DNA of 64,000 nucleotides from a virus, in IMG/VR virus record IMGVR_UViG_3300027899_000001, positions 334,373 through 398,372 of that record; one strand, given 5' to 3'. The position numbers and the translations under genes are program-made. The notes beneath the pieces were generated by a model that had not been told where the DNA came from, made no database searches, and saw only the letters and a program-made list of their open reading frames with translations. Shown in pieces: positions 2,239 through 52,317 of this stretch. How positions within the stretch are numbered: position 1 is the first letter of the stretch; each line of letters opens with the position of its first letter.

Positions 2239-2838
2239 TTATTTTCTAATAATATGATTATTTATTTTTTGAGGCATAGCTGCTTCTATTAGTTTATCTG
2301 AAAATTGAATATTAGGACATTTCTTTTGCGCTTTTTCAAGAAATACTTTATACTCGTTTATATATTTTTTATAGTTCGCGTATACATAAATTAATCTATT
2401 GCTTTCTCCAATTGCTATTGTATTTGAGTCTCCTACTCTTTGAACAGTTAAAAATTTAGATTTTGTAGGAAGAACTGTAGTCCAATTTTTATTTGTTTCT
2501 TGTAGTACTAATTGTTCAGCTTTTAACACTGAAAGAATATCATTGTGAATATTATTAGGTCTAAATTCTAAAAATAAATCTCCGTTTTCTATTATTACTC
2601 CTCTAACATCTTTTCCAAAATTGGTTAAATATTCTGGATTTCTCCATATTATAAAATCTTCATTTCTATAAAAAGGTTTTTTATCTCCTTTAAGTTTTTG
2701 TTTTTCTTGTTCTTCTTTATACTTTTTTTCAAATTCTTCATGTTCTCTTGGAACTCTTGATAAATTAGAATCTTGAGCAATAAACTTATCTGATATACTC
2801 TCTTCTATTTTAATATTTTCACGAACAATCTTTAACAT
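2239..2838 (-). CDS. hypothetical protein whose N-terminus (MLKIVRENIKIEESISDKF) is weakly related to the EKF/DMGIG-leader family
   Basis: 199 aa ORF; only the first ~18 residues resemble the family leader. Confidence 0.5.
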   Translation of the reverse strand: MLKIVRENIKIEESISDKFIAQDSNLSRVPREHEEFEKKYKEEQEKQKLKGDKKPFYRNEDFIIWRNPEYLTNFGKDVRGVIIENGDLFLEFRPNNIHNDILSVLKAEQLVLQETNKNWTTVLPTKSKFLTVQRVGDSNTIAIGESNRLIYVYANYKKYINEYKVFLEKAQKKCPNIQFSDKLIEAAMPQKINNHIIRK

Positions 2839-3530: not shown

Positions 3531-3731
3531 TTATTCTTCTTTTATATAAGCGTTTTTTACTTTAACGTTTTTCTTTACAGCATTTATAAACTGCCATGGA
3601 TTTTCAATTCCATAAATTTCTTTTCTATAATTATTATCATATATTATGACTACACAATATGTAACAGGTTTAAGAGGCACATACCCATTAAAAAAGGATT
3701 TTGGATTATATGATTTAAAAAAATCACTCAT
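3531..3731 (-). CDS. hypothetical protein
   Basis: 66 aa ORF, ATGA-overlapped with the downstream gene. Confidence 0.4.
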   Translation of the reverse strand: MSDFFKSYNPKSFFNGYVPLKPVTYCVVIIYDNNYRKEIYGIENPWQFINAVKKNVKVKNAYIKEE

Positions 3732-4069
3732 TTATGTACTTTAAATCCTTTATCTTTTAGTAGTGCTTGTATACCAGATCTATACCAACTAAACGCAGTT
3801 TGAGGATTACCTTTAACTGTAATATATTTTGTAATAAAATCTCCTATTTTTTGATCATATTTATGAGGAAACCAGTTATCAGCAGATCTTATTATATCTT
3901 CAGGAATTTCACGTGTTTCTAAGATTTGATGTAAATGATCTACTATCCATTTATCTAATTCTAACCAAGTATTAAAATCGCGATGTACATAAAGTCCAAT
4001 TCCCATATCTTCTATAGGATCCGATTCTTCTTTAAATACTTCATTTATATTTTCTCTAACTAATTTCAT
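3728..4069 (-). CDS. EKF/DMGIG-leader family protein
   Basis: N-terminus MKLVRENINEVFKEESDPIEDMGIG. Confidence 0.7.
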   Translation of the reverse strand: MKLVRENINEVFKEESDPIEDMGIGLYVHRDFNTWLELDKWIVDHLHQILETREIPEDIIRSADNWFPHKYDQKIGDFITKYITVKGNPQTAFSWYRSGIQALLKDKGFKVHK

Positions 4070-4890
4070 TCGTAAAAAGGCATTTTAACTTTACAAATCT
4101 TTCTAATTTTCGCTTCAGTAATTCCATAATGCATAGACATACAAACAGTTCCATCTATTCTTTTTGGAAATCCTTTTAATGATCTTATATCGTTATCTGA
4201 TGCATTAAAATCTTCTTTTACATATTCAGGAAATCCTATGCATGATTGTATAGTTCCTGGAACACAAAAATTTCCATACACATGGTGAAATTTAATATAT
4301 TCAGGAAGTTTTTTATATTTTGGATAAGTATTTCTAACACAATATAAATTTACTTGACCTTGTACTGTAATGCTTAAATCTTTATTTATAGTATAATCAA
4401 TAATATTCATTTCTTTAAGCCAATCTTTAATCTTTTTAATGATTCCTATACCCATGTCTTGAATAGGATCAGTATCTTCAGCAAATTTTTCATTAACTGA
4501 TTCATTTATTTTTAATACATCAAAATATTCGTCCCAAACTTCTATAGGGGCAGATCCATATGTATAATAATATCCTCCCGAATCTATATACCTTCTTGCT
4601 GTTATAGCGTTCTGCACATTATCTCCAAAATTAATTATTACTAAACTTAAAATATTTTTTTCTTTGTTTACTTCTTTAACTATACTAGTATTGCCTTTAC
4701 GAATTCTTGCGGTGACCTTTTCAATATTTTCGTCAAAAATAATATCATTGTTTTTTTGATATAAATCTTGTTTAACTATAATTATATCTCCTTTCTTTAT
4801 TCTCGTAAATTTAGATCCAATACCTAAATCCCATATGGGATCAGTTCCTTGTTCAAATTTTTCATTTATATGTTCTTTTACTATTTTCAT
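4066..4890 (-). CDS. EKF/DMGIG-leader family protein with two tandem modules
   Basis: N-terminus MKIVKEHINEKFEQGTDPIWDLGIG and a second internal copy VLKINESVNEKFAEDTDPIQDMGIG near residue 127; ATGA overlap with 3728..4069. Confidence 0.7.
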   Translation of the reverse strand: MKIVKEHINEKFEQGTDPIWDLGIGSKFTRIKKGDIIIVKQDLYQKNNDIIFDENIEKVTARIRKGNTSIVKEVNKEKNILSLVIINFGDNVQNAITARRYIDSGGYYYTYGSAPIEVWDEYFDVLKINESVNEKFAEDTDPIQDMGIGIIKKIKDWLKEMNIIDYTINKDLSITVQGQVNLYCVRNTYPKYKKLPEYIKFHHVYGNFCVPGTIQSCIGFPEYVKEDFNASDNDIRSLKGFPKRIDGTVCMSMHYGITEAKIRKICKVKMPFYE

Positions 4891-19627: not shown

Positions 19628-19655
19628 TAAAAGAGGGCATTTAACCCTCATTGTT

Positions 19656-20150: not shown

Positions 20151-20151
20151 A

Positions 20152-20502: not shown

Positions 20503-20705
20503 TTTATTTACTATTTTTTTTATAACTTACATAAAGTATAAGTAATACTACTATTGATATAATTATGATAATTGTTCCCATATTTTATTATATATTTAAA
20601 TTGAAAAAAGTTTCATAATTAATATAACTAACATAATTCCTATCATACTCCAAAAAACTACTTTATAGGAATAAGATTTGTCTCTATTGTAATAATCTTC
20701 ACTTT

Positions 20706-21023: not shown

Positions 21024-21047
21024 GATGTTGAGGTTTATATTTTTTCA

Positions 21048-21495: not shown

Positions 21496-21528
21496 AATTT
21501 TATTTTATTAAATGAATACTAAAAATTG

Positions 21529-21610
21529 TGGCCAAAAAGGGACTCGAACCCTTACGTCTTTCAACACATGCTTTTGAGGCATACGCGTCTACCAATTTCG
21601 CCATCTGGCC
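21529..21610 (-). tRNA. tRNA-Leu(CAA), class II
   Basis: Acceptor GGCCAGA/TTTGGCC, D-arm GCGAAATTGGTAGACGC, anticodon stem TATGC/GCATG with loop CTCAAAA, long variable arm, T-arm AAGGG-TTCGAGT-CCCTT. Confidence 0.6.
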
Positions 21611-21909
21611 AGGCTAGCCTCCGCCGATCTTTCATCAGTTTCTTTTGTTAAACCTTTTCTCCAATTTCTTTTTCCTACAAATCCGTCTATAGCTGGTTTT
21701 CCTTCTCTATGAATTAAACAGTGTAAAAAATGTGAATTTAAACTTTGATGATTATTGAATTCTTTTTCACATTCGCATCTATATAAATTTTCATTAATTT
21801 TATATTTTGATGGTTGTTTTTCTTTTTTAACATAGATTTTACAAAAAGTTTTATGCCCATTTATTCCTTGAGAACTTTCAAATTCTCTTCCACATTCACA
21901 CTTATACAT
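21589..21909 (-). CDS. C2H2-type zinc-finger protein; overlaps the tRNA-Leu(CAA) call by about 22 nt
   Basis: CECGREFESSQGINGHKTFC and CECEKEFNNHQSLNSHFLHC. Its 3' end at 21589 overlaps the tRNA at 21529-21610; either the ORF end or the tRNA boundary may be wrong. Confidence 0.45.
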   Translation of the reverse strand: MYKCECGREFESSQGINGHKTFCKIYVKKEKQPSKYKINENLYRCECEKEFNNHQSLNSHFLHCLIHREGKPAIDGFVGKRNWRKGLTKETDERSAEASLARWRNW

Positions 21910-21962
21910 TTTTAATTTATATATTCATAAACAAATTTGGGAGAGTCAATGATTATTCTATG

Positions 21963-22050
21963 TGCTCTTGAAGGGGATCGAACCCTCAATCCTTTTTAAG
22001 GCATTAATTTTTGAGACTAACGTGTATTTCCTATTTTCCACCACAAGAGC
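21963..22050 (-). tRNA. class II tRNA, anticodon probably CAA (Leu); 88 nt
   Basis: Acceptor GCTCTTG/CAAGAGC, anticodon stem TTAGT/ATTAA with loop CTCAAAA, variable arm CCTTaaaAAGG, T-arm GAGGG-TTCGATC-CCCTT. Confidence 0.5.
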
Positions 22051-22065
22051 AAAATTTATTTTTTG

Positions 22066-22139
22066 TACTGCGTGCGGAGCTCGAATCCGCGAATTCAGGA
22101 TTGAAAGTCCTGTGTGTTAACCAACTTCACCAACGCAGC
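22066..22139 (-). tRNA. tRNA-Glu(UUC)
   Basis: Acceptor GCTGCGT/ACGCAGT, anticodon stem CAGGA/TCCTG with loop CTTTCAA, T-arm GCGGA-TTCGAGC-TCCGC. Confidence 0.55.
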
Positions 22140-22416
22140 ATATTTAATTTCAGAAATTCTGAGAATCGAGAATCACCGTGAAACTTTTGTCTATCACAAG
22201 GATGCCAACCCACCCTTCAACTGTTTTAACGCCGAGTTGGGGTCGCTTTATCAGTTGCATTTAATAACTTAAAAAAATCGTTACAAGGAATCAAACCCTG
22301 TTATTTCTTCGCTGAGTCCATACTATAGCTAGGATTATTCATTTACTTCATAGATTTCACTACCTCTTGGTTTTTAAGCGAATCGAGGATAACGATTTTT
22401 TATTTTTTCAAAGAAC

Positions 22417-22647
22417 TTATAATAATCTTTTATCTTTTTTATATTTTTTAAATTCTACGTCTGTATCTATTGTTGTATCTAATTTATCTTTGTATTCTTT
22501 CATTAACCATTTTGCAAATCCCAATTTTAATTTAGTAGTTTCAAGATCATCAATAGTAAATAACATATTATATTGTATTGAATAATCTGCTCTATCTATT
22601 AAACTATCCAATTGATCTGTTATAACTTTTGATACTGATCCTGTCAT
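22417..22647 (-). CDS. hypothetical protein
   Basis: 76 aa ORF. Confidence 0.4.
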   Translation of the reverse strand: MTGSVSKVITDQLDSLIDRADYSIQYNMLFTIDDLETTKLKLGFAKWLMKEYKDKLDTTIDTDVEFKKYKKDKRLL

Positions 22648-22656
22648 ATTATATTT

Positions 22657-22857
22657 TTATCTATTTAAAAATTTATTCCAAATTTCATCTGCATCAATTT
22701 CTTTATTTAAATTTCCTTTAAGCTCTAAAATAAGAAATTTTACGAAATTAATATCTTTATTCATAATAGCCACATCTTTTGTATTCATTGATAATACTTC
22801 TTGAACATCAGATAAATGACTCATTGCTATTAAAGACGCTGTTGTTTTCATTATCAT
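22657..22857 (-). CDS. hypothetical protein
   Basis: 66 aa ORF; a promoter motif lies 16 nt upstream. Confidence 0.4.
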   Translation of the reverse strand: MIMKTTASLIAMSHLSDVQEVLSMNTKDVAIMNKDINFVKFLILELKGNLNKEIDADEIWNKFLNR

Positions 22858-22865
22858 TTTTTATT

Positions 22866-22910
22866 TTATAGTGTAAATATAATAAAAAGATTTGACAGAA
22901 AAAAATATTT
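22866..22910 (-). promoter_or_regulatory. conserved promoter-like motif, copy 6
   Basis: tagtgtaaatataataaaaagatttgacagaaaaaaatattt. Confidence 0.5.
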
Positions 22911-22916
22911 AAGCAA

Positions 22917-23222
22917 CTATTTTTCAGTTTCTACAAAATTTTCATCTATAAAATTTGATAACTTTTTTGCTTCTGTTGGAGTTAATAAAATTTCATCTAA
23001 ATGCATTTTACCTGTTTTCATATAGTGCCACATTACTTTCAATTTATCCCAAAATCTCGGTTTTTCTGAATAATTTCCATAACTAAACATTGCTAAAGTA
23101 AATTCTTGTCTTACTCTAGTTGTTTTAGATATCGTATCGTCAAAGTATTCTGTTTCACTTTGTACTACTAATAAATGTGCTCCACATTCACATTCAATTA
23201 TGGTTTTCTTTGTTTCTTCCAT
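22917..23222 (-). CDS. hypothetical protein
   Basis: 101 aa ORF. Confidence 0.4.
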   Translation of the reverse strand: MEETKKTIIECECGAHLLVVQSETEYFDDTISKTTRVRQEFTLAMFSYGNYSEKPRFWDKLKVMWHYMKTGKMHLDEILLTPTEAKKLSNFIDENFVETEK

Positions 23223-23533
23223 TATTGTTCTATTTTATATAAATTATTATTAAATTCAAAATGATCTCCACAACAATTCTGAGATCCATCATCGTTTTCT
23301 AGTTCGCAAAATTGTTGTGTAGAACTTATAAACTTATGAATACAATAATCACATTTAAATTCATGATTTTTAAAATCTACACAGTATTTTGAACATAAAT
23401 GTTTATCATGTTCATATATGCAAGTCGTACAGTTTTTAGCAATAGTAATCATAATTTTAAATATTTGTGCCGCCGGAGGGACTCGAACCCCCAAGCCTTT
23501 CGGGTCTGATCTACAGTCAGGTGAGCCAACCAA
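23222..23533 (-). CDS. cysteine-rich hypothetical protein; overlaps the tRNA-Tyr call by about 66 nt
   Basis: Several CxxC pairs (CTTCIYEHDKHLC..CDYC). Its 5' end (23533) overlaps the tRNA at 23467-23548; either the ORF start or the tRNA boundary may be wrong. Confidence 0.35.
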   Translation of the reverse strand: MVGSPDCRSDPKGLGVRVPPAAQIFKIMITIAKNCTTCIYEHDKHLCSKYCVDFKNHEFKCDYCIHKFISSTQQFCELENDDGSQNCCGDHFEFNNNLYKIEQ

Positions 23534-23548
23534 TTGCTCAACGTCGGC
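23467..23548 (-). tRNA. tRNA-Tyr(GUA), class II
   Basis: Acceptor GCCGACG/CGGCGGC, D-arm GAGC-AATTGGTTG-GCTC, anticodon loop CTGTAGA, variable arm CCCGAAAGGCTT, T-arm GGGGG-TTCGAGT-CCCTC. Confidence 0.55.
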
Positions 23549-23588
23549 GTTTGGCTGTCTTTCCAGCCTGTCATTATCAATTCGTGAA

Positions 23589-23780
23589 TTATATTAATTT
23601 AACATTAATTGCATTCAATCCTTTTGGTCCTTCTTTTAAATCGAATTCGACTTTGTCGTTTTCGTTAATAGTATCTACACATCCTGTTACGTGTACAAAA
23701 TACTCTTTAGAATCTCTGTTGTCTTTGATAAATCCAAATCCTTTAACTGAGTTAAAAAATTTTACTGTTCCTTCATTCAT
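23589..23780 (-). CDS. cold-shock protein (CspA family)
   Basis: GTVKFFNSVKGFGFI RNP motif. Confidence 0.75.
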   Translation of the reverse strand: MNEGTVKFFNSVKGFGFIKDNRDSKEYFVHVTGCVDTINENDKVEFDLKEGPKGLNAINVKLI

Positions 23781-23828
23781 ATTATTAATTTATTTTAATT
23801 AGCATAGACACTATGTCTATGTTTACTT

Positions 23829-24194
23829 TTAACCATGTTCCATTTGTGAGTCATATTCAATTGCTTCAATAACTGAAACTGTTATATCTTTTATATCATC
23901 TATTTCTTTTATTTCCTTTTCCCAAAAGTGATTTGATATAAGTCTAGAATCTAATTCTTCATAGTTTACAATTTCTGTATATCCTGCTCCATAACCACTT
24001 CTTTTATTATATTCTGCTCTTTGGCTTATCCAATCATTTAGGGCGTCAATAAACATATCTCTTTTCATTTTTATTAAACAAAATTTATCGTCAGAATAAT
24101 ATCCATAATTACCTGGTAGCCATACATAATCTTCATCTGCTAAAACTATTGTTAAACCATCAAAATTAAATGTTACTAATTCTTTTTCTTTCAT
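23829..24194 (-). CDS. hypothetical protein
   Basis: 121 aa ORF. Confidence 0.4.
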   Translation of the reverse strand: MKEKELVTFNFDGLTIVLADEDYVWLPGNYGYYSDDKFCLIKMKRDMFIDALNDWISQRAEYNKRSGYGAGYTEIVNYEELDSRLISNHFWEKEIKEIDDIKDITVSVIEAIEYDSQMEHG

Positions 24195-24994
24195 GATATT
24201 AATTTTTTAAATTCTTCTATTTGTTTATATAATTTTTCTTTATTAATTTCATTTATAGGGTTAACCCATTTTATTCTAATAACTTTCCACTCATGCTGTA
24301 ATAAAAAATCATCTTTTATTTTATCTTTTTCTTTTCGTTCTTCATGTTGTTTTCCATCTATTTCTAAAGCTATTTTTTTATCTACAAATGCAAAATCAAT
24401 CCACCATCTATTAACTTTATAGTCTCTATGCCATCCAGTTATATTTTCATTTTCAAATAAAGATATAAAGTATTTTTCAGGATATGATGGCGCATTATCT
24501 TTTCTAGATTTCCATCCTATAAAAGTTCCGTTTGCAATTCTTTCGTGTGCTTTATCAGAAATCTTTTTCTTAGCAGATTCACTACAACCATGGTGTTTTC
24601 TTGCACATTCTCTAGAACAATATATTCGCCTTTTATATCTTGTTTTATATTCTTTTTTACATTCAGGACATATTTTTTGAATATATTCTAATGATAATAT
24701 ATCAGTTTCATGCTGTTTATACCTTAGAGTTTTTCCTATTTTTTCTTTAGTTTCTTTACTTAATATACGTTTTTTATTGTTGAAAGAATTTGAACAGCTT
24801 TTAGAACAAAAAGTACTATAGCGATGTTTATAATCAAAACCAACATTACAATTTTTACATTTTTTAGGAGCTTTATTATATTCAGCTATTCTTTTTTGTT
24901 TTAATAATGATAGTTTTTCTCTTCCTTTTTTAAATGCATTTCTTGCATTTTCTTGATGTTTTAATGAACCTTGATAATTTTTATCTTTAGACAT
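24191..24994 (-). CDS. zinc-finger plus DUF559/Vsr-like endonuclease (paralog of 17229..17885)
   Basis: Multiple CxxC fingers; C-terminus WIDFAFVDKKIALEIDGKQHEE...EWKVIRIKW. Confidence 0.6.
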   Translation of the reverse strand: MSKDKNYQGSLKHQENARNAFKKGREKLSLLKQKRIAEYNKAPKKCKNCNVGFDYKHRYSTFCSKSCSNSFNNKKRILSKETKEKIGKTLRYKQHETDILSLEYIQKICPECKKEYKTRYKRRIYCSRECARKHHGCSESAKKKISDKAHERIANGTFIGWKSRKDNAPSYPEKYFISLFENENITGWHRDYKVNRWWIDFAFVDKKIALEIDGKQHEERKEKDKIKDDFLLQHEWKVIRIKWVNPINEINKEKLYKQIEEFKKLIS

Positions 24995-25054
24995 ATTGTT
25001 TTTATATTATATATCTAAAAATTAGTCGAGTTTTAATTATTCGAACAAAAAATG

Positions 25055-25134
25055 TAGGGTGAACGGGATTCGAACCCGCGTAAAAACTCCTGATCCCAAA
25101 TCAGGCGAGATAAACCTGGCTCCTCTACCACCCT
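25055..25134 (-). tRNA. tRNA-Pro(UGG) candidate
   Basis: Acceptor AGGGTGG/TCACCCT, anticodon stem CCTGA/TCAGG with loop TTTGGGA, T-arm GCGGG-TTCGAAT-CCCGT. Confidence 0.5.
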
Positions 25135-25142
25135 ATTTATTG

Positions 25143-25226
25143 TGCTCTCTGTCGGACTCGAACCGACATCCATTTAAGGACAGCTTCTTAGGCTGATGCG
25201 TCTTATTCCAGTTGCGCCAAGAGAGC
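25143..25226 (-). tRNA. class II tRNA-Leu paralog with an altered anticodon loop (CTAAGAA, apparent AAG)
   Basis: Its acceptor, D-arm and T-arm are nearly identical to the tRNA-Leu(UAG) at 25322-25405, but the anticodon arm differs (ATCAGCCTAAGAAGCTGT). Confidence 0.5.
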
Positions 25227-25232
25227 ATTTTG

Positions 25233-25317
25233 TGCCTCTGAAGGGAGTCGAACCCTCATGGTCTTTCGACCCACGGATTTTAAGTCCGTTGCGTACTACC
25301 AATTTCGCCACAGAGGC
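25233..25317 (-). tRNA. tRNA-Leu(UAA), class II
   Basis: Acceptor GCCTCTG/CAGAGGC, anticodon stem ACGGA/TCCGT with loop CTTAAAA, long variable arm. Confidence 0.65.
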
Positions 25318-25321
25318 ATTG

Positions 25322-25405
25322 TGCTCTCTGTCGGACTCGAACCGACATCCAACTAAGGCGTGCTCCTAAGGCACGTGCGTCTTAATCCAGTTGCGCCAAG
25401 AGAGC
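25322..25405 (-). tRNA. tRNA-Leu(UAG), class II
   Basis: Acceptor GCTCTCT/AGAGAGC, anticodon stem CGTGC/GCACG with loop CTTAGGA, long variable arm. Confidence 0.65.
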
Positions 25406-25435
25406 AAAAATCAACATGTCAAAGACCTAAAATTG

Positions 25436-25508
25436 TGGAGCAAATTGTATCGAAACAATACCTTATGTTCTTCAGACATACGTGACACACCTATTACACC
25501 ATTGCTCC
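25436..25508 (-). tRNA. tRNA-Phe(GAA)
   Basis: Acceptor GGAGCAA/TTGCTCC, anticodon stem TATGT/ACATA with loop CTGAAGA; the T-loop is atypical. Confidence 0.55.
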
Positions 25509-25570
25509 ATTTATGGCTGGTGATTTGAATCCCATTTAATCGTTCTACCTTAACGAACCATATTTTTTAT

Positions 25571-25656
25571 TTGCTGCCCTGAGTGGATTCGAACCACTAT
25601 CCCAAGTTTCAAAGACTCAGATAATTAACTTTCGCACCTTTATACGACAGGGCAAT
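25571..25656 (-). tRNA. tRNA-like gene with an oversized D-region (possible Gln-like UUG loop); uncertain
   Basis: T-arm AGTGG-TTCGAAT-CCACT and acceptor TGCCCTG/CAGGGCA are convincing, but the D-region is about 25 nt. Confidence 0.3.
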
Positions 25657-25731
25657 AAACTGAGAAATTCGGTTAGAGCATTTTTTCTAATTTCCAGGTT
25701 TCGAAGTATCTCTTTACCTTACTACAGTTTG

Positions 25732-25806
25732 CTGTTCTACCTGGATTCGAACCAGGATGGACCTGGCTTCAGAGGCCAGCGCGATATCCAGTTACGCTAT
25801 AGAACA
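25732..25806 (-). tRNA. tRNA-Gln(CUG)
   Basis: Acceptor TGTTCTA/TAGAACA, anticodon stem CTGGC/GCCAG with loop CTCTGAA, T-arm CCTGG-TTCGAAT-CCAGG. Confidence 0.6.
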
Positions 25807-25883
25807 ATTTAAGTTGAGAAATGTGGAGTGAGTGTCTTTTTTATTAGATTTGCATGTCTTTTACGAAGTAACTCATTTCCTTA

Positions 25884-26549
25884 CTACAACTTTATATTAA
25901 ATATTTTTTCATAATTTTGAATATCTGATAAAAATATCATTTCAATATTATTATAATTACTCAAAATATATCTCATTTTCTTTTTATCTTCTTCTTCATA
26001 TCTTCCTTTAACTTCAAAGAACTTTTTTAAATTTGGACACCAAAAATCTGGATAATATGTGTGAATTTCCCCGAATTCATTTGTCCAAGATAAACCATCA
26101 GAAAAAGGCTTTATCCAATCTTTATCTATAATATTTAAAATAACTGCGAAACGTTTTTCATAGGTTCCTTGTACTTTTATCTTTGTTCCATCAGGTTTTA
26201 TAATTTCATACCATTTACATTTTCCGCCAGTTATCCATCCTTTATTATTTATAGATATTTTTCTTTTTGTTTCTAAATCTCTTGGACCATTTTTTCTTCC
26301 TTTCAATTTAGAAGGTCTTCCTTTTTTAGTATCCCAAACTCTATTTTCAGAATGAATAGCCCAAATATGAAATTTTACGCCTCTAGGATTATCATATTCT
26401 TTTTCACATATTGGACATTTATGAAAACCATTAGGTTGTTTATAAATATTAACTTTATTTTGTCTATTACCACATTTTTCATAATGTTTCTTAAAATTTG
26501 ATAAACTTATTTCTTTATTACATTTATCACAAATTCTTTTATTTACCAT
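25884..26549 (-). CDS. zinc-finger plus PD-(D/E)XK nuclease (paralog of 740..1432)
   Basis: MVNKRICDKCNKEISLSNFKKHYEKCG.. and YYPDFWCPNLKKFFEVKG. Confidence 0.6.
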   Translation of the reverse strand: MVNKRICDKCNKEISLSNFKKHYEKCGNRQNKVNIYKQPNGFHKCPICEKEYDNPRGVKFHIWAIHSENRVWDTKKGRPSKLKGRKNGPRDLETKRKISINNKGWITGGKCKWYEIIKPDGTKIKVQGTYEKRFAVILNIIDKDWIKPFSDGLSWTNEFGEIHTYYPDFWCPNLKKFFEVKGRYEEEDKKKMRYILSNYNNIEMIFLSDIQNYEKIFNIKL

Positions 26550-26673
26550 ATTTTTATTTTATATATTCATATAGTAATTCTTTAATTTACTACTTAATGT
26601 AACACTTGTTCATTACTACATTGCTGAGAAAGCCGAAAAGTGTGTAATTAGCTTTTAACTTTTCCCCCATTTG

Positions 26674-26756
26674 AGACCGAGAAGGGATTCGAACCCTTGT
26701 GAGCTTTCGCTAATGGTTTTGCAGACCATCCTTTTCAACCACTCAAGCACTCAGTC
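26674..26756 (-). tRNA. class II (long variable arm) tRNA with apparent GCA anticodon
   Basis: Acceptor GACTGAG/CTCGGTC, D-arm CTTGAGTGGTTGAAAAG, anticodon stem ATGGT/ACCAT with loop CTGCAAA, variable arm about 14 nt, T-arm AAGGG-TTCGAAT-CCCTT. Confidence 0.5.
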
Positions 26757-27437: not shown

Positions 27438-27836
27438 TTATTTCATTGTTATCTTATACGTGTGACTATCATCTAAAGAATACGGAGTTCCTCTTCTAGT
27501 ATAAACACGAACTTCATAAATTCTATCAGACATATTTACACTACTAAAGTCTAATTTTATTTTAACTACTTCTATAGAAATATTTTTAGCCCATTTATAT
27601 GTGTTAAAATTAAAAAAATCACCCGTTATTATTTTTCCTAATAATTTTTGTTTAAATAATTTGCGTAATTGAGCACGTCTTTTTTTAATTATAGTACTAA
27701 TGTCTTTTTGTACATTTGTATAATATATTTCATTTTGATCTCTTAAAATAAAATTCTCTTTGTATCCTATACCCATATCTTTTACTGGATCGGAATCTTC
27801 AACAAATTTTTCATTTATATGTTCTTTAACTATCAT
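27438..27836 (-). CDS. EKF/DMGIG-leader family protein
   Basis: MIVKEHINEKFVEDSDPVKDMGIG...KLLGKIITGDFF. Confidence 0.7.
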   Translation of the reverse strand: MIVKEHINEKFVEDSDPVKDMGIGYKENFILRDQNEIYYTNVQKDISTIIKKRRAQLRKLFKQKLLGKIITGDFFNFNTYKWAKNISIEVVKIKLDFSSVNMSDRIYEVRVYTRRGTPYSLDDSHTYKITMK

Positions 27837-27839
27837 AAT

Positions 27840-28244
27840 TTAAATCATTCTTAATGTATACATATTTTTGTAGTCTTCTAAAACAAAAGAATTTCCATCT
27901 TCATCATATACGCGAACTTCAGAAAGAGTATCACACCCATATCCATCATGAAAACTTACTCTTATTCTAACTACATTTACAGTTTTATTTTTTAGTGGTC
28001 TATAATAATCTCCTTTTTTAACTAAAAAAGTTCCTGTCATTTCTTTACCAACTAGTTTTTCTTTTAATTCTTTACGTAAAGTTTTTCTATATTTTTCTAC
28101 TATCTTTTGAAATTGTTGATATGTGTATGAACCATATTCTTTTTTTGTTTAGAAAAATCATATTCTTCCTTATGACCTATACCCATTTGACGAATAGGAT
28201 CACCTTCTTCTTTAAACTTTTCAAATATATGTTCTTTAACTATC
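27840..28244 (-). pseudogene. EKF/DMGIG-leader family member with a frameshift at an A7 tract (pseudogene, homopolymer error or slippage)
   Basis: The ATG at 28244 gives MIVKEHIFEKFKEEGDPIRQMGIGHKEEYDFSKQKK, then the frame changes at caaaaaaag and continues EYGSYTYQQFQKIVEKYRKTLRKELKEKLVGKEMTGTFLVKK.. into ORF 27840..28040; the joined product resembles 27438..27836 and 28541..28933. Confidence 0.5.
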
Positions 28245-28533
28245 ATGCGGGTATTCTCCAATGTGTTTTTAAAAATTCTTCTTCAGTATTAAAAGTTGTT
28301 ATATCAATATTTTTTGTTATTATAAAATTATACCATAATTGTTCCCATTGATCAACATTTTGTAATTTTCCTGCTTTGTGTCTTTTCATTAGATCTTTTA
28401 CATAATTCCAATTATTTATAATTTCTAAAACAGTTTCATTATGAATTATATATTCAGGCACGGACTGTTGAGCTTGCATATTTTGTTGTCCTGGTCCAAA
28501 GAACGCTTGAAAAAAATGTGGTGGTTGTTGCAT
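28243..28533 (-). CDS. hypothetical Gln-rich protein
   Basis: 96 aa ORF. Confidence 0.4.
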   Translation of the reverse strand: MQQPPHFFQAFFGPGQQNMQAQQSVPEYIIHNETVLEIINNWNYVKDLMKRHKAGKLQNVDQWEQLWYNFIITKNIDITTFNTEEEFLKTHWRIPA

Positions 28534-28540
28534 ATTTATT

Positions 28541-28933
28541 TTATTTAGCTGTTATTACATATTCTTGTTCACCCCAACTAGAGGTATTCATATTATATTT
28601 TCTTCCTTTATTTGATGTTACTATTAATTCTCTTACATATCCATAATCTAAATCTACTACAACTTCAACACTTTTTATTAATAATGATCTTGTCATTTCT
28701 TTATATTCTGTAAAAAAATCACCCGTCACAATTTTTCCAACAAATTTTTCACTCAGTTCTTTTTGTAATGAACTTTCCATTATTTTTAAAAGTTTTCTTT
28801 TTTCTTTATTAAATTTTTTCGCGTGAGTTGTACATAACACTTCCATATCAATTTTTTCTTTGTATCCTATACCCATATCGTGTATAGGATCAGATTGTTC
28901 CTGAAATTTTTCAAATATGAAGTGAGCTTTCAT
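28541..28933 (-). CDS. EKF/DMGIG-leader family protein
   Basis: MKAHFIFEKFQEQSDPIHDMGIG...KFVGKIVTGDFF. Confidence 0.7.
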   Translation of the reverse strand: MKAHFIFEKFQEQSDPIHDMGIGYKEKIDMEVLCTTHAKKFNKEKRKLLKIMESSLQKELSEKFVGKIVTGDFFTEYKEMTRSLLIKSVEVVVDLDYGYVRELIVTSNKGRKYNMNTSSWGEQEYVITAK

Positions 28934-28938
28934 TTAGA

Positions 28939-29715
28939 TTATTTTATTTTGAATAATTTTCTAAATAATCCTCGTGATGCTTTATGAGCATCTGCTTTTG
29001 CTGATAGATTTTCAGGATTTGAATCAGCATCAATAGCAGTCCAAACTTCCCACTGAAATCCCCATTCAGCAAAAGGAAAATAAGTATATCCTTGATCGCC
29101 CCATTCTGCTGTCCATGAATTTCTAATAATAAATTTATCTTTAAGATATCCAGCAACACAAACTGCATGTCCACCTAACATTTCTTGACCAGTAAAATCT
29201 GGTTTCCAAAAATCCATTTTATCTGAATTAAATACTGGAAATGCAATATAACAAGGTCCATTAGCAAATAAAGCTTTTTTAAGTGAATCTACTGTATTGA
29301 TTTGAGCATATCCTTGAATTTTATATTTAGCTGCTTTAAATTTTAATTCTGGCGTAATAGCTTTAAATTGTCCATAAGGATAATCTTTTTCTGTAACAAT
29401 TCCAATCTTATATAAAATATCCATTGTATCTCTTGGTGTCATTCCAGAAGATTCTTGATTTGATCTTAAATTATATACAAATTGAGGTGATAAATATTCT
29501 CTAAGTTCAACATCTGTTAATTCTTCCCATTCTTTAAGTGCTGCTGCAGTTTGTGCAGAGCATGTACCTTGCTGACCTTGATCTCTTACTGGTCTCATTT
29601 GAGGTCTCAAATCCCATATTTCTGGAAGAACTACTCTGTTAGGATATATTGATTCTAACATAAAGTCCCTTTTATCTACGGGAGATTTTTCAAGATTAAA
29701 TAAATACTTTTGCAT
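28939..29715 (-). CDS. papain-like (C1 family) cysteine peptidase
   Basis: QGQQGTCSAQTAA is the catalytic Cys region; GGHAVCVAGY the His region; NSWTAEWGDQGY the Asn/Trp region. It is embedded in the leader-family cluster. Confidence 0.65.
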   Translation of the reverse strand: MQKYLFNLEKSPVDKRDFMLESIYPNRVVLPEIWDLRPQMRPVRDQGQQGTCSAQTAAALKEWEELTDVELREYLSPQFVYNLRSNQESSGMTPRDTMDILYKIGIVTEKDYPYGQFKAITPELKFKAAKYKIQGYAQINTVDSLKKALFANGPCYIAFPVFNSDKMDFWKPDFTGQEMLGGHAVCVAGYLKDKFIIRNSWTAEWGDQGYTYFPFAEWGFQWEVWTAIDADSNPENLSAKADAHKASRGLFRKLFKIK

Positions 29716-29724
29716 ATTATTAAA

Positions 29725-30246
29725 TTATTTTAATTTATCTACTACACTTTTTATTTTTTCTGCGCTTTTTATAATGTGATCTAATGTATCTAAAAAATAT
29801 TGATTAACTGGAGTATACTTATTACGAAAATCTACTGATGATCTTTTGTCTCCTGGCATAATTTCTTTATCTTGCCATATATTATATACTGGTTCAAAAT
29901 ATATTTTTATTGTTCTATATGAATATGAACTTGGAATGCCTGCACCTGTCACTCTATATAATGCCGTAATTATATCTGGAAATTTTACATCATCTTCATA
30001 CCATAATTGATTAGCGCCTTGTTTTACACAAAATTTAATAAGATTTATTCTTTCAAATGTATTTTCTGCATAATGAGTTACTCCGATTACTAATATATCA
30101 TTATATGTTGATTGAGAAGTAATTTCTTCTCTAGAGTATTCCGGAAATTTTTTTAATATTTGAGCAAGTGGACCAATACCCATGTCTTTAATAGGATCTG
30201 ATTCTTCAGAGAATTTTTCATTAAGATATTCACGTACACGGTCCAT
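29725..30246 (-). CDS. EKF/DMGIG-leader family protein
   Basis: MDRVREYLNEKFSEESDPIKDMGIG. Confidence 0.7.
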   Translation of the reverse strand: MDRVREYLNEKFSEESDPIKDMGIGPLAQILKKFPEYSREEITSQSTYNDILVIGVTHYAENTFERINLIKFCVKQGANQLWYEDDVKFPDIITALYRVTGAGIPSSYSYRTIKIYFEPVYNIWQDKEIMPGDKRSSVDFRNKYTPVNQYFLDTLDHIIKSAEKIKSVVDKLK

Positions 30247-30284
30247 GAAGAGATTTTTTATTATATATTCATAGTCCAGAACAG

Positions 30285-30325
30285 CAAAAAACCCTTAGAA
30301 TCATCTAAGGGTTTTATTTTTGAGA
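30285..30325. terminator. bidirectional terminator
   Basis: ACCCTTAGAatcaTCTAAGGGT flanked by an A-run and a T-run. Confidence 0.45.
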
Positions 30326-30476: not shown

Positions 30477-31181
30477 ATGAACTACCAAAAAATTTATGAA
30501 TCTATAATTCAAAAAGCTAAATCTGAAAATAGAGTAAAACACAAAGAAGTATATTATGAAAATCATCATATTATGCCTAAATGTTTAGGTGGAAATAACG
30601 ATATATCAAATTTAATTTTATTAACGGCAAAAGAACATTTTATATGTCATAAATTATTAACATATATTTATCCAACGAATAGAAAAATAATATGTGCTTT
30701 ACATATGATGACATATTCTTGTAATGAAAATTCTATTAAATCTTCAAGAGATTATAAATTTGTAAAAGAGCTTTTATCAGATAATAGTAAAGGAAAAAAA
30801 CATCCTATGTTTGGAAAACATCATTCAGAAGATGCAATAAATAAAATGAAAAAACCACATAAAAAATATTCGAAAGATTATATGTTAAGCTTAAAAGAAA
30901 TTCGTAAAGGAGAAAAAAATCCTATGTATGGCAAAAAACAAACTAAAGAATCAAATGAAAAAAATTCTCAATCTCATATAGGAAAAAAACATACAACAGA
31001 AAGTAAGAAAAAAATGTCTATAACTCGTATATCAAAACATTTTAAACATACAGAACAAACAAAAAAGAAACAAGGAGAATGGCAAAAAGGAAAAACATAT
31101 ATAGAACTATATGGAGAAGAAAAGGCATCACAAATGAAAGAAAAACAAAGACTTGCTAAATTACAAAAAAATAGGAAGTAA
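30477..31181 (+). CDS. HNH homing endonuclease (paralog of 37928..38629)
   Basis: YYENHHIMPKCLGGNNDISNLILLTAKEHFICH; opposite strand to the flanking operon. Confidence 0.8.
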   Translation: MNYQKIYESIIQKAKSENRVKHKEVYYENHHIMPKCLGGNNDISNLILLTAKEHFICHKLLTYIYPTNRKIICALHMMTYSCNENSIKSSRDYKFVKELLSDNSKGKKHPMFGKHHSEDAINKMKKPHKKYSKDYMLSLKEIRKGEKNPMYGKKQTKESNEKNSQSHIGKKHTTESKKKMSITRISKHFKHTEQTKKKQGEWQKGKTYIELYGEEKASQMKEKQRLAKLQKNRK

Positions 31182-50546: not shown

Positions 50547-51298
50547 TATTAACAGAAGATCAATTACTGATGTTAAATAAATGTGTAGCTCAGGGGCCTA
50601 TAGATAAGGCCTCTGTAGTTATATTTGGCAATGAGTTTGGAACTGCTGGTGGAGAAGGTGATACTGAAAGATGTGTTAATAGATTTATGCATGAATTTGC
50701 CACAAGAAAATTATTACAAATAGGTGAAGGATTTTCAACAATAGAAATAGACTCGCCACCTGTAAACTCAACTTTTCTTCAGTTCATTTCAAGATTTATG
50801 TTAGCACGTAAATATAAAGATGAAAGATTTTTCGGTGAGTTGTCAGAAGAAGGAAAAGTAGTTCTTAATAAGTATATAATGTATGACCTTTATAGAAAAG
50901 ATAGTGCTATAATAAATCTCAGACCACTACCGCGTCACACAGAAAGGCATTGGGACTACTCTAATATAGATGAAAAGGAATATAATAGGCAATACAATTT
51001 TAGCCTTAAGAAGCCTTTGAATGACAAGTATAAAGAGATAAGATTGACAGCTATGAAAGAAGCTTTTCAATTAGCCAAGAATGCTTTGATATTAGGATCA
51101 GGCGATAAAGATAATAAAAAGAAATTTTTTGAAACGATATATCCTGATATTAAATTTGAAGAATACATATTACTTGGAAATGTAAAGATATACGTATCAG
51201 AATTTCCTAAAATAATTCTTTCAAATTACTATGATCATAGAAGTGGTGTAGGATTAAATGGATTGAAAGAAATCTATAGATTTGTTAATACCCTTTAG
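50543..51298 (+). CDS. hypothetical protein
   Basis: 251 aa ORF; ATGA overlap with the PTP gene. Confidence 0.4.
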   Translation: MILTEDQLLMLNKCVAQGPIDKASVVIFGNEFGTAGGEGDTERCVNRFMHEFATRKLLQIGEGFSTIEIDSPPVNSTFLQFISRFMLARKYKDERFFGELSEEGKVVLNKYIMYDLYRKDSAIINLRPLPRHTERHWDYSNIDEKEYNRQYNFSLKKPLNDKYKEIRLTAMKEAFQLAKNALILGSGDKDNKKKFFETIYPDIKFEEYILLGNVKIYVSEFPKIILSNYYDHRSGVGLNGLKEIYRFVNTL

Positions 51299-51821
51299 GT
51301 CTAGTATGAATATCACTTATACAATCGCAAACATCTAAAATATCGTCTCTTGTAAATTCACCAGGATTTTGTGCGCAATAAATTACTCCACTAAGACTGA
51401 CATGACCTGGCATCTTTTTTCTTGGAGGATGTACTATTTCTGGAAAATATTTTAATGATGATATTTTATTGTCTTGAAAAGAAAAATATCCATATATTTC
51501 TCTTGGACATCCTTTTAATGATGTCATATCATTACCCATTATATTAAATTCACCATCTATCACTCCAAATTTTATATAATAGGGGAAATTTCCTAAATGC
51601 TGATTACGTAAATCTACACTACCATATACATCTATAGTTCCATCTATATTGAATGTATATTGATTTTCTGTGAAACCGTGTCTTTCAAAAAATGCAGTAT
51701 TTTTACCTATGTATTTATCTAACCATCTTTTTTGAATAGTTTTTAATCCAATTCCTAAATCATGAATTGGATCGCTTTCTTCTGAAAACCTTTCAGTAAT
51801 ATATTCTCGTACTAATTTCAA
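51285..51821 (-). CDS. EKF/DMGIG-leader family protein; probable TTG start coupled to the upstream stop (TTGA)
   Basis: The leader LKLVREYITERFSEESDPIHDLGIG begins 12 codons inside the track ORF 51285..51854; a TTG at 51819-51821 overlaps the TGA of 51818..52255. Confidence 0.55.
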   Translation of the reverse strand: MKLVREYITERFSEESDPIHDLGIGLKTIQKRWLDKYIGKNTAFFERHGFTENQYTFNIDGTIDVYGSVDLRNQHLGNFPYYIKFGVIDGEFNIMGNDMTSLKGCPREIYGYFSFQDNKISSLKYFPEIVHPPRKKMPGHVSLSGVIYCAQNPGEFTRDDILDVCDCISDIHTRPKGY

Positions 51822-52255
51822 GTTTTTTCTATAATTTTGAAGTATTCTGCCCAAGTAGAATACTTTTCGTCGCTATATAATATCGCTAATCCTAAATAAT
51901 TTTTTTCTAAATTATAGCCTTTTTTTATTTCTTTTTTACAATAATTAAAAAACTCATTATCTCCAAAAAATGCTATATATAATTCTAGTGATTTAGAATG
52001 TTTTTTACTTTTAACAACTACTCCTTTTATATCTTCTTTTGCCCACGGAAGGAAATTTTTTCCAAGAGTATCAGATGGTGAAAAATACATTTTTTTAAGA
52101 TTTGAGGGTGTATCTGCATTATAAAAATCTTTTTTAACTTTTATTGTATCTCCCCTTTTAATATTGCCGAATCCCATCGTTCCTATACCCATATCAGCAA
52201 TAGGGTCGCTTTCTTCTGTAAATTTCTCGTTAATATTTTCTCGTACTATGCGCAT
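51818..52255 (-). CDS. EKF/DMGIG-leader family protein
   Basis: MRIVRENINEKFTEESDPIADMGIG. Confidence 0.7.
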   Translation of the reverse strand: MRIVRENINEKFTEESDPIADMGIGTMGFGNIKRGDTIKVKKDFYNADTPSNLKKMYFSPSDTLGKNFLPWAKEDIKGVVVKSKKHSKSLELYIAFFGDNEFFNYCKKEIKKGYNLEKNYLGLAILYSDEKYSTWAEYFKIIEKT

Positions 52256-52317
52256 CTTCTTTTTTATTTTATTTATTCCAGATTAGAATGAATAAATAAA
52301 TAAAATAAATCGCGAAT

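What the first reader, a model, noticed from the sequence alone, without database searches (positions are those of the whole stretch)
27438..30246. Family of at least 9 paralogs sharing a selected N-terminal leader (M)KIVREHINEKFxEESDPIxDMGIG on unrelated C-termini, clustered with a papain-like protease
Members are at 3728..4069, 4066..4890 (two leader copies in one protein), 27438..27836, 27840..28244 (frameshifted), 28541..28933, 29725..30246, 51285..51821 and 51818..52255, with a weak copy at 2239..2838. All begin with the same 22-25 residue peptide, then diverge completely. The codons differ between copies (for example tcg gat cct, act gat ccc, agc gac cct for S/T-D-P), so the peptide is under purifying selection rather than being a conserved nucleotide signal. 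The copies sit in three tandem arrays coupled by ATGA/TTGA overlaps. The largest array contains a C1-family cysteine peptidase (28939..29715). A conserved N-terminal leader on variable cargo recalls phage capsid-targeting sequences that are cleaved after packaging (T4 internal proteins), double-glycine-type leaders removed by dedicated cysteine peptidases, and RiPP or polymorphic-effector leaders. The co-located peptidase and the small Gly-x-Gly (DMGIG) end of the leader make protease-processed, leader-directed delivery of diverse effectors a concrete hypothesis. I do not recognise this leader as a described family.
Basis: partly seen in the sequence, partly recalled or inferred. Interest (0 to 1): 0.85.

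Follow-up and report, generated by a model that had tools for sequence, protein, structure and literature searches.

The report
Universal peptide tag on huge-phage modules
A strictly conserved 18-25-residue peptide precedes every small, otherwise unrelated protein module in hundreds of genes of a group of uncultured huge phages. It is not in any library or paper searched, and it most likely works as a virion-loading and processing tag like the capsid-targeting sequence of phage T4, not as a substrate of the papain-like protease next to it.

Summary
Nine copies of the peptide lie on the minus strand at the stated places (0.00 expected by chance), and they are conserved at protein level, not DNA level. 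The peptide is more than an N-terminal leader. A profile search found it in 1,547 protein clusters, and many of the best-scoring proteins repeat it 2-10 times at about 105-150-residue spacing in uninterrupted ORFs. Each copy precedes a different small module: ankyrin, LRR-like, SH3-like, or unannotated folds (at least 230 module groups). The same modules occur as separate genes or fused, including inside this window.

AlphaFold2 folds the modules but leaves the tag unstructured. The tag has no match in Pfam, PHROGs, NCBIfam, PDB, 50,697 deposited phage genomes or the literature library, and it is essentially absent from cellular genomes. Related contigs carry T4-type portals.

Tag arrays share a late-type promoter box with portal and scaffold-like genes, and the modules are basic. 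The N-terminal decapeptide (MKIVREHINE) mirrors T4's capsid-targeting sequence (MKTYQEFIAE).

Best reading (about 40%): a tag that loads host-directed modules into the capsid and marks where they are cut. The C1 peptidase link is not supported. The peptidase occurs in phages without the tag, and tag genes vary around it.

The parts
51818..52255 (-). Single-module tag gene (145 aa). Tag 52181-52255, then an SH3-like 'KRGD...VKK' module.
   Evidence: The module matches residues 1-127 of 4066-4890 (31% identity, E 6e-14).
51285..51821 (-). Single-module tag gene (178 aa, TTG start in a TTGA overlap). Tag 51747-51821, then an LRR-like 'GxFxxxxNxLxSLKGxP' module.
   Evidence: Matches residues 128-252 of 4066-4890 (34% identity, E 5e-16).
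29725..30246 (-). Single-module tag gene (173 aa), first gene of the central array. Tag 30172-30246.
30254..30315 (-). Terminator hairpin (30288-30315) followed by the late-type promoter-like box TGAATATATAATAAAAAA (30254-30271), upstream of the array.
   Evidence: The same hairpin+box arrangement stands upstream of many array-leading tag genes, and the box stands upstream of portal and scaffold-like genes.
28939..29715 (-). Papain-family (C1) cysteine peptidase, 258 aa, no tag. It sits in the array but is part of a conserved backbone.
   Evidence: Pfam PF00112 4.1e-20. Catalytic motifs aligned to 3ois. Synteny with L050 and L052. Homologues in Lak phages.
28541..28933 (-). Single-module tag gene (130 aa). 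Tag 28865-28933 (23 aa), then a 'LxGKxxTGDFF' module.
28243..28533 (-). Gln-rich 96-aa ORF without a tag. Conserved neighbour of the peptidase in L050 and L052.
27840..28246 (-). Frameshifted tag gene. Tag 28175-28246. The frame changes in an A-run near 28150, and the downstream frame is a full-length paralogue of 27438 and 28541.
   Evidence: The truncated product P0001 is on record for 2 contigs.
27438..27836 (-). Single-module tag gene (132 aa). Tag 27765-27836, with the same module family as 28541.
4066..4890 (-). Two-module protein (274 aa). N-terminal tag 4816-4890, SH3-like module, internal 18-residue core 4444-4497, LRR-like module.
   Evidence: In AF2, module 2 has pLDDT ~90 and both tags are at 51 or below.
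3728..4069 (-). Single-module tag gene (113 aa, ATGA overlap). Tag 3995-4069, then the second-commonest module type, a small alpha/beta fold ('LYxHRDF...IPEDI').
   Evidence: In AF2 the module has pLDDT >90 and the tag 51-57. No PDB neighbour.
2239..2838 (-). 199-aa protein with only the N-terminal decapeptide-like start (MLKIVRENI) and no core. Preceded by the late-type box (2845-2855).
52262..52277 (-). Variant late-type box AATAAATAAAATAAAA upstream of the 52255 array. It lies in the 62-bp divergent region shared with the collagen-like fibre gene, which has the same variant on the + strand.

Best explanation
The peptide is a bipartite, intrinsically unstructured tag. Part one is an N-terminal decapeptide, M-K-[LIV]-V-[RK]-E-x-[IL]-N-E. 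Part two is an 18-residue acidic core, [LIV]-N-E-K-F-x-E-[DE]-S-D-P-[IV]-x-D-[ML]-G-I-G, which abuts the first folded residue of each module.

A clade of huge, AT-rich phages with T4-type portals, probably infecting Bacteroidota, attaches this tag to a very large and fast-changing repertoire of small (~90-150 aa), mostly basic binding-type modules. These modules are encoded either as translationally coupled single-module genes or as fused 'beads on a string' proteins.

Proposed mechanism (inferred, not shown):
- The genes are transcribed late, together with virion genes.
- The tag docks the proteins to the prohead core, as the T4 capsid-targeting sequence does.
- The head-maturation protease cuts at the tag, most plausibly after the nearly invariant Glu of h-N-E. 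This removes the N-terminal decapeptide and separates fused modules.
- The freed modules stay in the capsid and enter the host with the DNA as early host-directed effectors or anti-defence binders.

Shown: the anatomy, the distribution, the lack of predicted structure, fusion/split interchange, and the promoter sharing. Inferred: packaging, cleavage and its position, and the function of the cargo.
For: [quoted passage not shown]
- T4's CTS is MKTYQEFIAE, cut after residue 10 (PMC8442874). gp24 also loses its first 10 residues (PMC9958956), and its N-terminus is MAKINELLRE. N-terminal tag copies read MK[LIV]V[RK]E[HY]INE, with Glu at positions 6 and 10 and a hydrophobic residue at 8. The Glu at -15 is 94-96% conserved in 498 copies.
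- The decapeptide also occurs alone on other proteins.
- Related loci carry T4-type portals (PF07230, 5.6e-51; four loci by phmmer), each within about 1-8 kb of tag genes.
- A box ATATATAAA(A)TAAA, or a close variant of it, precedes 5/5 portal genes. The strict form precedes 7/9 scaffold-like genes and 31 tag genes. It precedes fibre, baseplate, holin-like and lysozyme genes too, but 0 of 14 replication/metabolism genes.
- Recurrent neighbours are baseplate-wedge, head-closure and adaptor genes.
- Modules are basic (median pI 8.75, against 6.5 for other ORFs; p = 1e-18) behind an acidic tag.
- The tag is unstructured and exposed both at the N-terminus and between modules.
- Orthologous modules are split in L063 and L012 but fused in L007, and split versus fused within the window.
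- The tag is virus-restricted.
Against: - No head protease or capsid gene could be identified in the window or in ~1 Mb of related fragments, so the protease type is unknown.
- There are no proteomic data.
- The 18-residue core is much larger than any protease site or the T4 CTS. Under the h-N-E cleavage model it would remain on the mature modules with no assigned role.
- The decapeptide alone also heads a lysozyme-domain protein that sits next to a holin-like gene. That protein looks like an endolysin, which is not expected to be packaged.
- One 20-kb stretch holds 35 tags. Packaging so many species would be unprecedented.
- The similarity to the T4 CTS rests on 5 of 10 residues, two of which (M, K) are trivial.
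- The promoter box also precedes homing endonucleases, so it is not strictly virion-specific.
- Small proteins in AT-rich genomes are often basic anyway.
Confidence: 0.4

Rival explanations
1. The tag is an uncleaved docking motif or flexible linker. It recruits each module, singly or multivalently, to one common partner in the infected cell. That partner could be a phage hub, a chaperone or protease adaptor, a compartment, or a host complex. No packaging into the capsid is involved.
For: - Very high conservation over 18 residues with no predicted structure is typical of a peptide that folds on binding a partner.
- Many modules are protein-binding folds: ankyrin in 38 of 88 proteins, plus LRR-like and SH3-like modules.
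- The number of tagged modules per genome is very large.
- The decapeptide occurs on a probable endolysin.
Against: - This reading does not by itself explain the free interchange of fused and split states.
- It does not explain the late-type promoter shared with virion genes.
- It does not explain the resemblance of the N-terminus to the T4 CTS.
- No candidate partner emerged among the conserved neighbours.
Confidence: 0.25
2. The co-located C1 cysteine peptidase is the dedicated processing enzyme. It cuts after G-I-G (Ile at P2 suits papain-like enzymes), releasing the cargo from its leader and from polyproteins.
For: - The peptidase is catalytically intact.
- It lies between tag genes with 5-9 bp spacers.
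- It has the same late-type box in L050 and L052.
- Conservation ends exactly at GIG.
- Three peptidase copies in ~1 Mb of fragments is compatible with about one per genome of this size.
Against: - Tag genes are inserted at different positions around a conserved peptidase + Gln-rich-ORF backbone in the window, L050 and L052. The 32%-identical homologue in L012 has no adjacent tag gene.
- Homologues (29-33% identity) occur in Lak megaphages, a Thermoanaerobacterium phage and a Burkholderia jumbo phage. No deposited phage genome contains the tag at tblastn E <= 10.
- PHROGs holds a family for the peptidase but none for the tag proteins.
- GIG directly abuts the folded module, which is a poor position for an endopeptidase.
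Confidence: 0.1
3. The conserved junction exists mainly to allow module shuffling, as a recombination cassette boundary. Alternatively it is an expression, folding or solubility aid with no targeting role.
For: - Module order and number vary widely, and the same module families occur in first and later positions.
- Arrays are hypervariable between close relatives.
Against: - DNA identity between copies is low: 67% on average, with a median longest exact run of 11 nt.
- Synonymous variation shows selection on the peptide.
- An 18-residue, near-invariant sequence kept across 1,547 clusters is far more constraint than a linker or solubility tag needs.
Confidence: 0.07

Closest known systems
Phage T4 capsid-targeting sequence (CTS) on internal proteins IPI/II/III, Alt and gp24, removed by prohead protease gp21
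   Same: - A short conserved N-terminal peptide on otherwise unrelated, variable, basic, non-essential-looking proteins.
- A decapeptide of the same length, with Glu at positions 6 and 10 and a hydrophobic residue at 8.
- A T4-type portal in the clade.
- Late-type promoter and proximity to virion genes.
- Clustering in hyperplastic loci.
   Different: - The tag is 25 residues, not 10, with an extra 18-residue acidic core that has no T4 counterpart.
- The core recurs internally up to 10 times per protein.
- The repertoire is tens to probably more than a hundred modules per genome, against about 4-5 in T4.
- No sequence homology to T4 IPs.
- No gp21 homologue was found, and packaging and cleavage are untested.
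Head paralogue families and long propeptides of giant phages (phiKZ, 201phi2-1, SPN3US)
   Same: - Giant phages with many paralogous inner-head or ejection proteins.
- Conserved N-termini among diverged paralogues (SPN3US gp53 and gp54 share 15 identical N-terminal residues).
- Multiple A/S/G-x-E cleavage sites (PMC5694885).
   Different: - Those families share homologous bodies (for example pfam12699) and have 100-residue or longer propeptides.
- Here the bodies are unrelated and only the short tag is shared.
- No sequence similarity, and a different phage lineage.
Polyvalent proteins of phages and conjugative elements (Iyer et al. 2017, PMC5512222)
   Same: - Multi-domain proteins (2-15 domains) of phages with extensive mosaicism.
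- Predicted to be packaged, delivered with the DNA and sometimes proteolytically processed.
   Different: - Polyvalent proteins combine enzymatic effector domains with embedded zincin-like peptidases and have no repeated junction tag.
- Here the only Pfam family found in more than one protein is ankyrin. No member carries a peptidase domain, and every module is prefaced by the same peptide.
Double-glycine leaders cleaved by C39 peptidase domains of ABC exporters
   Same: A ~20-residue N-terminal leader ending in small residues, with hydrophobic residues at -4 and -7, and a clan-CA cysteine peptidase nearby.
   Different: - Position -2 is Ile, not Gly.
- The enzyme is C1, not C39, and is not fused to a transporter.
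- The cargo is folded 90-150-aa domains.
- The motif recurs internally.
- The system is phage-encoded and probably intracellular.
Viral polyproteins of eukaryotic viruses (e.g. ASFV pp220/pp62 cut at G-G-X)
   Same: Several mature products are encoded in one ORF, separated by a recurrent short site that ends in Gly.
   Different: - This comparison comes from memory only and was not tested here.
- Those sites are 3-5 residues, not 18.
- No homologous protease was found.
- The same modules are also encoded as separate genes.

Membership tests
T4-type capsid-targeting sequence / internal proteins | A short conserved N-terminal peptide shared by otherwise unrelated proteins | tested here: met
   166 N-terminal copies. 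The distance from Met to the final Gly is 25 residues in 103 of them. At least 230 unrelated module groups follow.
T4-type capsid-targeting sequence / internal proteins | The peptide ends in a hydrophobic-x-Glu site, cut by the prohead protease | tested here: inconclusive
   The pattern [LIV]-N-E is present at residues 8-10, and Glu is 94-96% conserved. Actual cleavage cannot be tested. The L/I-x-E consensus for gp21 comes from my own knowledge. gp24 and the IPs lose 10 residues.
T4-type capsid-targeting sequence / internal proteins | The genome encodes a gp21-type (S77) head-maturation protease | tested here: inconclusive
   phmmer with T4 gp21, plus Pfam and PHROGs scans of selected candidate ORFs, found none in the window or in ~1 Mb of fragments. 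The fragments cover only part of the genomes.
T4-type capsid-targeting sequence / internal proteins | T4-type head assembly machinery in the same phage | tested here: met
   A gp20-family portal is present in related loci L007, L012, L063 and L044. It is not inside the window itself.
T4-type capsid-targeting sequence / internal proteins | The proteins are present in virions with the propeptide removed | not testable with these tools
   Needs virion proteomics and N-terminal sequencing.
T4-type capsid-targeting sequence / internal proteins | Sequence homology to the T4 CTS or IPs | tested here: not met
   Only 5 of 10 positions are shared with MKTYQEFIAE. The tag proteins match no annotated PHROG family.
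Double-glycine leader / C39 system | The leader ends in GG, GA or GS | tested here: not met
   The last three residues are G-I-G, and position -2 is Ile in 97-99% of copies.
Double-glycine leader / C39 system | A C39 peptidase domain on an ABC exporter | tested here: not met
   The neighbouring enzyme matches Peptidase_C1 only and is a 258-aa stand-alone protein. No transporter was found among the window ORFs scanned.
Polyvalent proteins (Iyer et al. 2017) | Many domains in one phage polypeptide | tested here: met
   Up to 10 tagged modules in 1,203 aa, in an uninterrupted ORF.
Polyvalent proteins (Iyer et al. 2017) | Enzymatic effector domains and embedded processing peptidases | tested here: not met
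   In a Pfam census of 88 multi-module proteins, ankyrin occurs in 38, the other families are isolated single-protein hits, and none is a peptidase.
Peptidase family C1 (papain) - applies to 28939-29715 only | A match to the family profile with catalytic Cys, His and Asn | tested here: met
   PF00112 4.1e-20. QGxxGxC, GGHAV and RNSW motifs aligned to 3ois.
RiPP precursor leaders | A short core peptide, with modification enzymes encoded alongside | tested here: not met
   The cargo is confidently folded 90-150-aa domains. No modification enzymes lie in the arrays.

The most novel reading that the evidence does not exclude
These huge phages may run a true polyprotein and tag system that has not been described for tailed phages. 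One universal 18-residue peptide would mark every module boundary. It would direct both the loading of dozens to hundreds of different small host-binding modules into the capsid and their separation by proteolysis. The virion would then deliver a large, rapidly evolving mixture of pre-made effectors or anti-defence binders together with the DNA. The acidic core that stays on each module could be a new docking or ejection signal with its own receptor.
Probability: 0.3. Interest if true: 0.88.

Novelty: new variant of a known kind. Interest (0 to 1): 0.72.

Why it matters
If the tag is a loading and processing signal, it gives a one-line sequence rule for listing the candidate injected proteins of a whole clade of uncultured huge phages: more than 1,500 clusters, mostly of unknown fold. 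It would also point to a very large reservoir of small host-targeting or anti-defence binders. And it offers a compact tag that might be used to load foreign proteins into large capsids, as the T4 CTS is used.

Even without a mechanism, the motif is worth defining. An 18-residue, nearly invariant, unstructured, virus-restricted peptide found in 1,547 clusters and absent from Pfam, PHROGs, NCBIfam and PDB is a family waiting for its binding partner.

Tried and rejected
- Gene-calling artefact (TGA read as Trp) as the source of the multi-copy proteins: rejected. P0050 and P0048 have no in-frame stops in the standard code.
- Amber recoding as the cause of the 'frameshifted' copy: rejected. TAG-TAG is followed by other stops, and the paralogous sequence continues in another frame after an A-run.
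- The tag as part of a folded domain: rejected by two AF2 models.
- Known family: no match in Pfam, PHROGs or NCBIfam, in PDB sequence profiles, in the literature by motif strings, or by megablast/tblastn against 50,697 phage genomes.
- Fold search of the second-commonest module: no significant neighbour.
- Cellular origin: only two true hits in 185,579 species genomes, both on tiny MAG contigs.
- Search for a head protease or capsid gene near the portals: nothing recognisable.
- T4-like gene order after the portal: not conserved. Thymidylate kinase and a sigma factor follow.
- First clustering by single linkage chained the modules together and was redone with coverage limits.
A natural-substring alignment was used instead. 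Module 1 of that model was too shallowly sampled to fold.
- Walking off the right edge of the window failed because the protein is not on record.
Full report
**Observation**

The window is 28.9% G+C and carries 19 tRNA genes. Its genes include NAPRTase, NAD synthase, a TROVE/Ro60-like protein, an SPFH protein and an HNH-NUMOD3 endonuclease. There is also a 1,295-aa collagen-like fibre protein and a 2,290-aa PKD/DUF285 protein. Proteins of the window are on record for a 405-kb metagenomic contig, so this is a huge phage.

A back-translated pattern matches 9 times against 0.00 expected in shuffles. The copies are 60% identical in protein and 67% in DNA. One third of the codon pairs that encode the same residue use different codons. 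Third positions diverge more than first and second positions (44% against 27%). The median longest exact DNA run shared by two copies is 11 nt. The selected object is therefore the peptide.

Three corrections apply. Some members share C-terminal modules. The frameshifted copy starts at 28246 and shifts frame in an A-run. The 'weak copy' at 2239-2838 has only the first nine residues.

**It is not just a leader**

A profile of the nine copies, searched against 1.84 billion representative proteins, found 1,547 clusters at E <= 0.001, 673 of them at E <= 1e-10. Nearly all of the 150 best-scoring proteins repeat the motif. They carry mostly 2-6 copies, and up to 10 by HMMER in one 1,203-aa protein. 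The median spacing is 127 residues, with most spacings between 100 and 140.

Two of these ORFs were checked on their DNA. They have no internal stop codon in the standard code, so they are not read-through artefacts.

Position statistics on 166 N-terminal and 332 internal copies give the same 18-residue core in both: [LIV]-N-E-K-F-x-E-[DE]-S-D-P-[IV]-x-D-[ML]-G-I-G. Conservation collapses immediately after the last Gly. N-terminal copies add M-K-[LIV]-V-[RK]-E-[HY]. The distance from Met to the final Gly is exactly 25 residues in 103 of 166.

**Cargo**

Cutting the proteins at the tags gave 699 distinct modules, which fall into at least 230 groups, 165 of them singletons. The largest groups are:
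- ankyrin;
- an 'LYxHRDF...IPEDI' module (window 3728-4069);
- an LRR-like module (window 51285-51821 and the second half of 4066-4890);
- an SH3-like module (window 51818-52255 and the first half of 4066-4890).

Each large group occurs both as the first unit and as later units. In a Pfam census of 88 multi-module proteins, ankyrin is the only family seen in more than one protein (38 of 88).

AlphaFold2 folds the module of 3728-4069 with pLDDT above 90 and leaves residues 1-20 at 51-57. In the two-module protein 4066-4890, module 2 reaches about 90. The internal tag stays at 36-51 despite ten well-aligned rows, and the N-terminal tag at 27-34. In both models the only regular element in the tag is a one-turn helix at P-I-x-D, and the fold begins directly after GIG. 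The folded module has no significant neighbour in PDB.

**Fused and split states are interchangeable**

Downstream of the portal gene, the same orthologous modules are separate 142-224-aa tag genes in L063 and L012 (46-61% identical to each other). In L007 they are modules 1 and 4 of one 488-aa ORF.

Inside the window the same relation holds. The fused protein 4066-4890 corresponds, in the same order, to the TTGA-coupled gene pair 51818-52255 + 51285-51821.

In L010 a 17-kb co-directional, overlapping array holds 20 tag genes with 35 tags.

**Distribution and what is known**

The tag proteins match no family that covers the tag in Pfam, PHROGs or NCBIfam. The tag has no match in PDB or in any of 50,697 deposited phage genomes, including Lak and other huge phages. 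No relevant paper in the library contains the motif strings.

Among 185,579 species genomes, only two contigs carry it. They are 8.4 and 1.9 kb, AT-rich, and sit in CPR and DPANN bins, so they are probably mis-binned phage fragments.

Just beyond the window's left edge, the same phage sequence (L078, an 18.8-kb contig that carries the window's leftmost gene) encodes a T9SS C-terminal sorting domain protein and a PorP/SprF protein. Start regions lack Shine-Dalgarno sequences. Both point to a Bacteroidota host.

**The peptidase**

28939-29715 is an intact C1 peptidase. In about 1 Mb of tag-bearing loci it occurs three times.

In the window, L050 and L052, the peptidase and a Gln-rich small ORF form a conserved backbone, and tag genes are inserted around it at different positions. 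The distant homologue in L012 has no adjacent tag gene. Homologues exist in Lak megaphages and in several unrelated phages, none of which has the tag.

The adjacency in the window is therefore best explained by the sheer density and mobility of tag genes. A role for the peptidase is not excluded. It appears to be a late gene too, and about one copy per genome would be enough.

**Evidence for a virion connection**

- Related loci carry T4-type portals (PF07230, 5.6e-51; four loci), each within about 1-8 kb of tag genes.
- Recurrent neighbours are baseplate-wedge, head-closure and head-tail adaptor genes.
- Array-leading tag genes are typically preceded by a terminator hairpin and then a box TGAATATATAAAATAAA, 8-14 nt before the start.
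- The same box, or a close variant, precedes all five portal genes. The strict form precedes 7 of 9 scaffold-like genes. It also precedes fibre, baseplate, gp25-like, holin-like and lysozyme genes, but none of 14 replication or metabolism genes. It resembles the T4 late promoter TATAAATA (my own knowledge).
- In the window, the canonical box precedes the 30246 array, and a variant is shared by the 52255 array and the divergent fibre gene.
- Modules are basic (median pI 8.75 against 6.5), like the 'highly basic' T4 internal proteins.

**Comparison with T4**

T4 internal proteins are diverse defence proteins that share only the capsid-targeting sequence. That sequence is MKTYQEFIAE, and it is cut off after residue 10. 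gp24 also loses 10 residues, and its N-terminus is MAKINELLRE. The tag's N-terminus, MK[LIV]V[RK]ExINE, has the same length to a nearly invariant Glu, a second Glu at position 6, and a hydrophobic residue at position 8. This decapeptide also occurs without the core on other proteins of these phages.

I therefore favour a CTS-like loading and processing tag. It is not a member of the T4 family. There is no homology, the 18-residue core and its internal repetition are new, and the protease, the packaging and the cleavage are all untested.

One observation cuts against the model. The decapeptide alone heads a lysozyme-domain protein that lies about 1.7 kb downstream of a holin-like gene.

**Verdict**

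This is a real, large, virus-restricted family, absent from every library and paper searched here, that is defined by a linear tag rather than by a domain. The general idea of a leader that directs diverse effectors is plausible, but the specific link to the peptidase is not supported.

Noticed in passing
window 30254-30271(-), 52262-52277(-), 2845-2855(-). Also upstream of 26549, 24994, 21909, 38792 and 416 (-) and 49114 (+). Many related loci.: A promoter-like box [AG][AG]ATATATAAA(A)TAAA, often directly after a GC-rich terminator hairpin. It or a close variant precedes all five portal genes, and the strict form precedes most scaffold-like genes plus fibre, baseplate, holin-like and lysozyme genes and homing endonucleases. 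It precedes none of 14 replication/metabolism genes. It is probably the clade's late promoter.
   Followed up: partly
L078 (sequence just beyond the window's left edge): 5174-6037 and 7124-8107: Phage-borne genes with a T9SS C-terminal sorting domain (Por_Secre_tail) and PorP/SprF. Together with the lack of Shine-Dalgarno sequences, this points to a Bacteroidota host.
   Followed up: no
window 19554-19627 (-): A tRNA with anticodon CTA (amber suppressor; ARAGORN labels it Pyl), among 19 tRNA genes in clusters at 486-1788, 17167-26756. TAG still appears as an in-frame stop pair in the frameshifted tag gene.
   Followed up: partly
window 12442-14145 (-): A TROVE/Ro60-like protein (Pfam 4.7e-09) in a phage. 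The Rfam scan found no Y-RNA family in the window, only tRNAs.
   Followed up: partly
L007:18476-19372 and L007:16458-16802: A lysozyme-domain protein starts with the tag's N-terminal decapeptide only (MKLVREHINEE...). It lies about 1.7 kb downstream of a holin-like membrane protein, and both are preceded by the late-type box. This is awkward for a pure capsid-targeting reading of the decapeptide.
   Followed up: partly
window 27840-28246 (-), around 28150: The frameshift in this tag gene falls in an A-run (aaacaaaaaaaag). The truncated 48-aa product is on record from two contigs. Pseudogene, assembly error and programmed slippage were not distinguished.
   Followed up: partly
window 30477-31181 (+): An HNH + NUMOD3 homing-endonuclease gene on the opposite strand, between the tag array and the SPFH gene. 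GIY-YIG/NUMOD endonucleases are the commonest neighbours of tag arrays in related loci (33 of 70 loci).
   Followed up: partly
window 52318-56205 (+) and 57026-63898 (+): A 1,295-aa fibre-like protein with two long collagen-like G-x-Q tracts, and a 2,290-aa PKD/DUF285 protein, divergent from the 52255 tag array. The collagen tracts cross-hybridise at ~75% DNA identity with L051 and L067.
   Followed up: no
window 6365-7579 and 10167-11102 (-): NAD+ salvage and synthesis genes (NAPRTase, NAD synthase) carried by the phage.
   Followed up: no
L073 (Peribacteria MAG, 8.4-kb contig) and L076 (Woesearchaeota MAG, 1.9-kb contig): Tag-bearing, 31% G+C short contigs binned into CPR and DPANN genomes. 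L073 also carries the late-type box. They are probably phage fragments mis-binned into these MAGs.
   Followed up: partly
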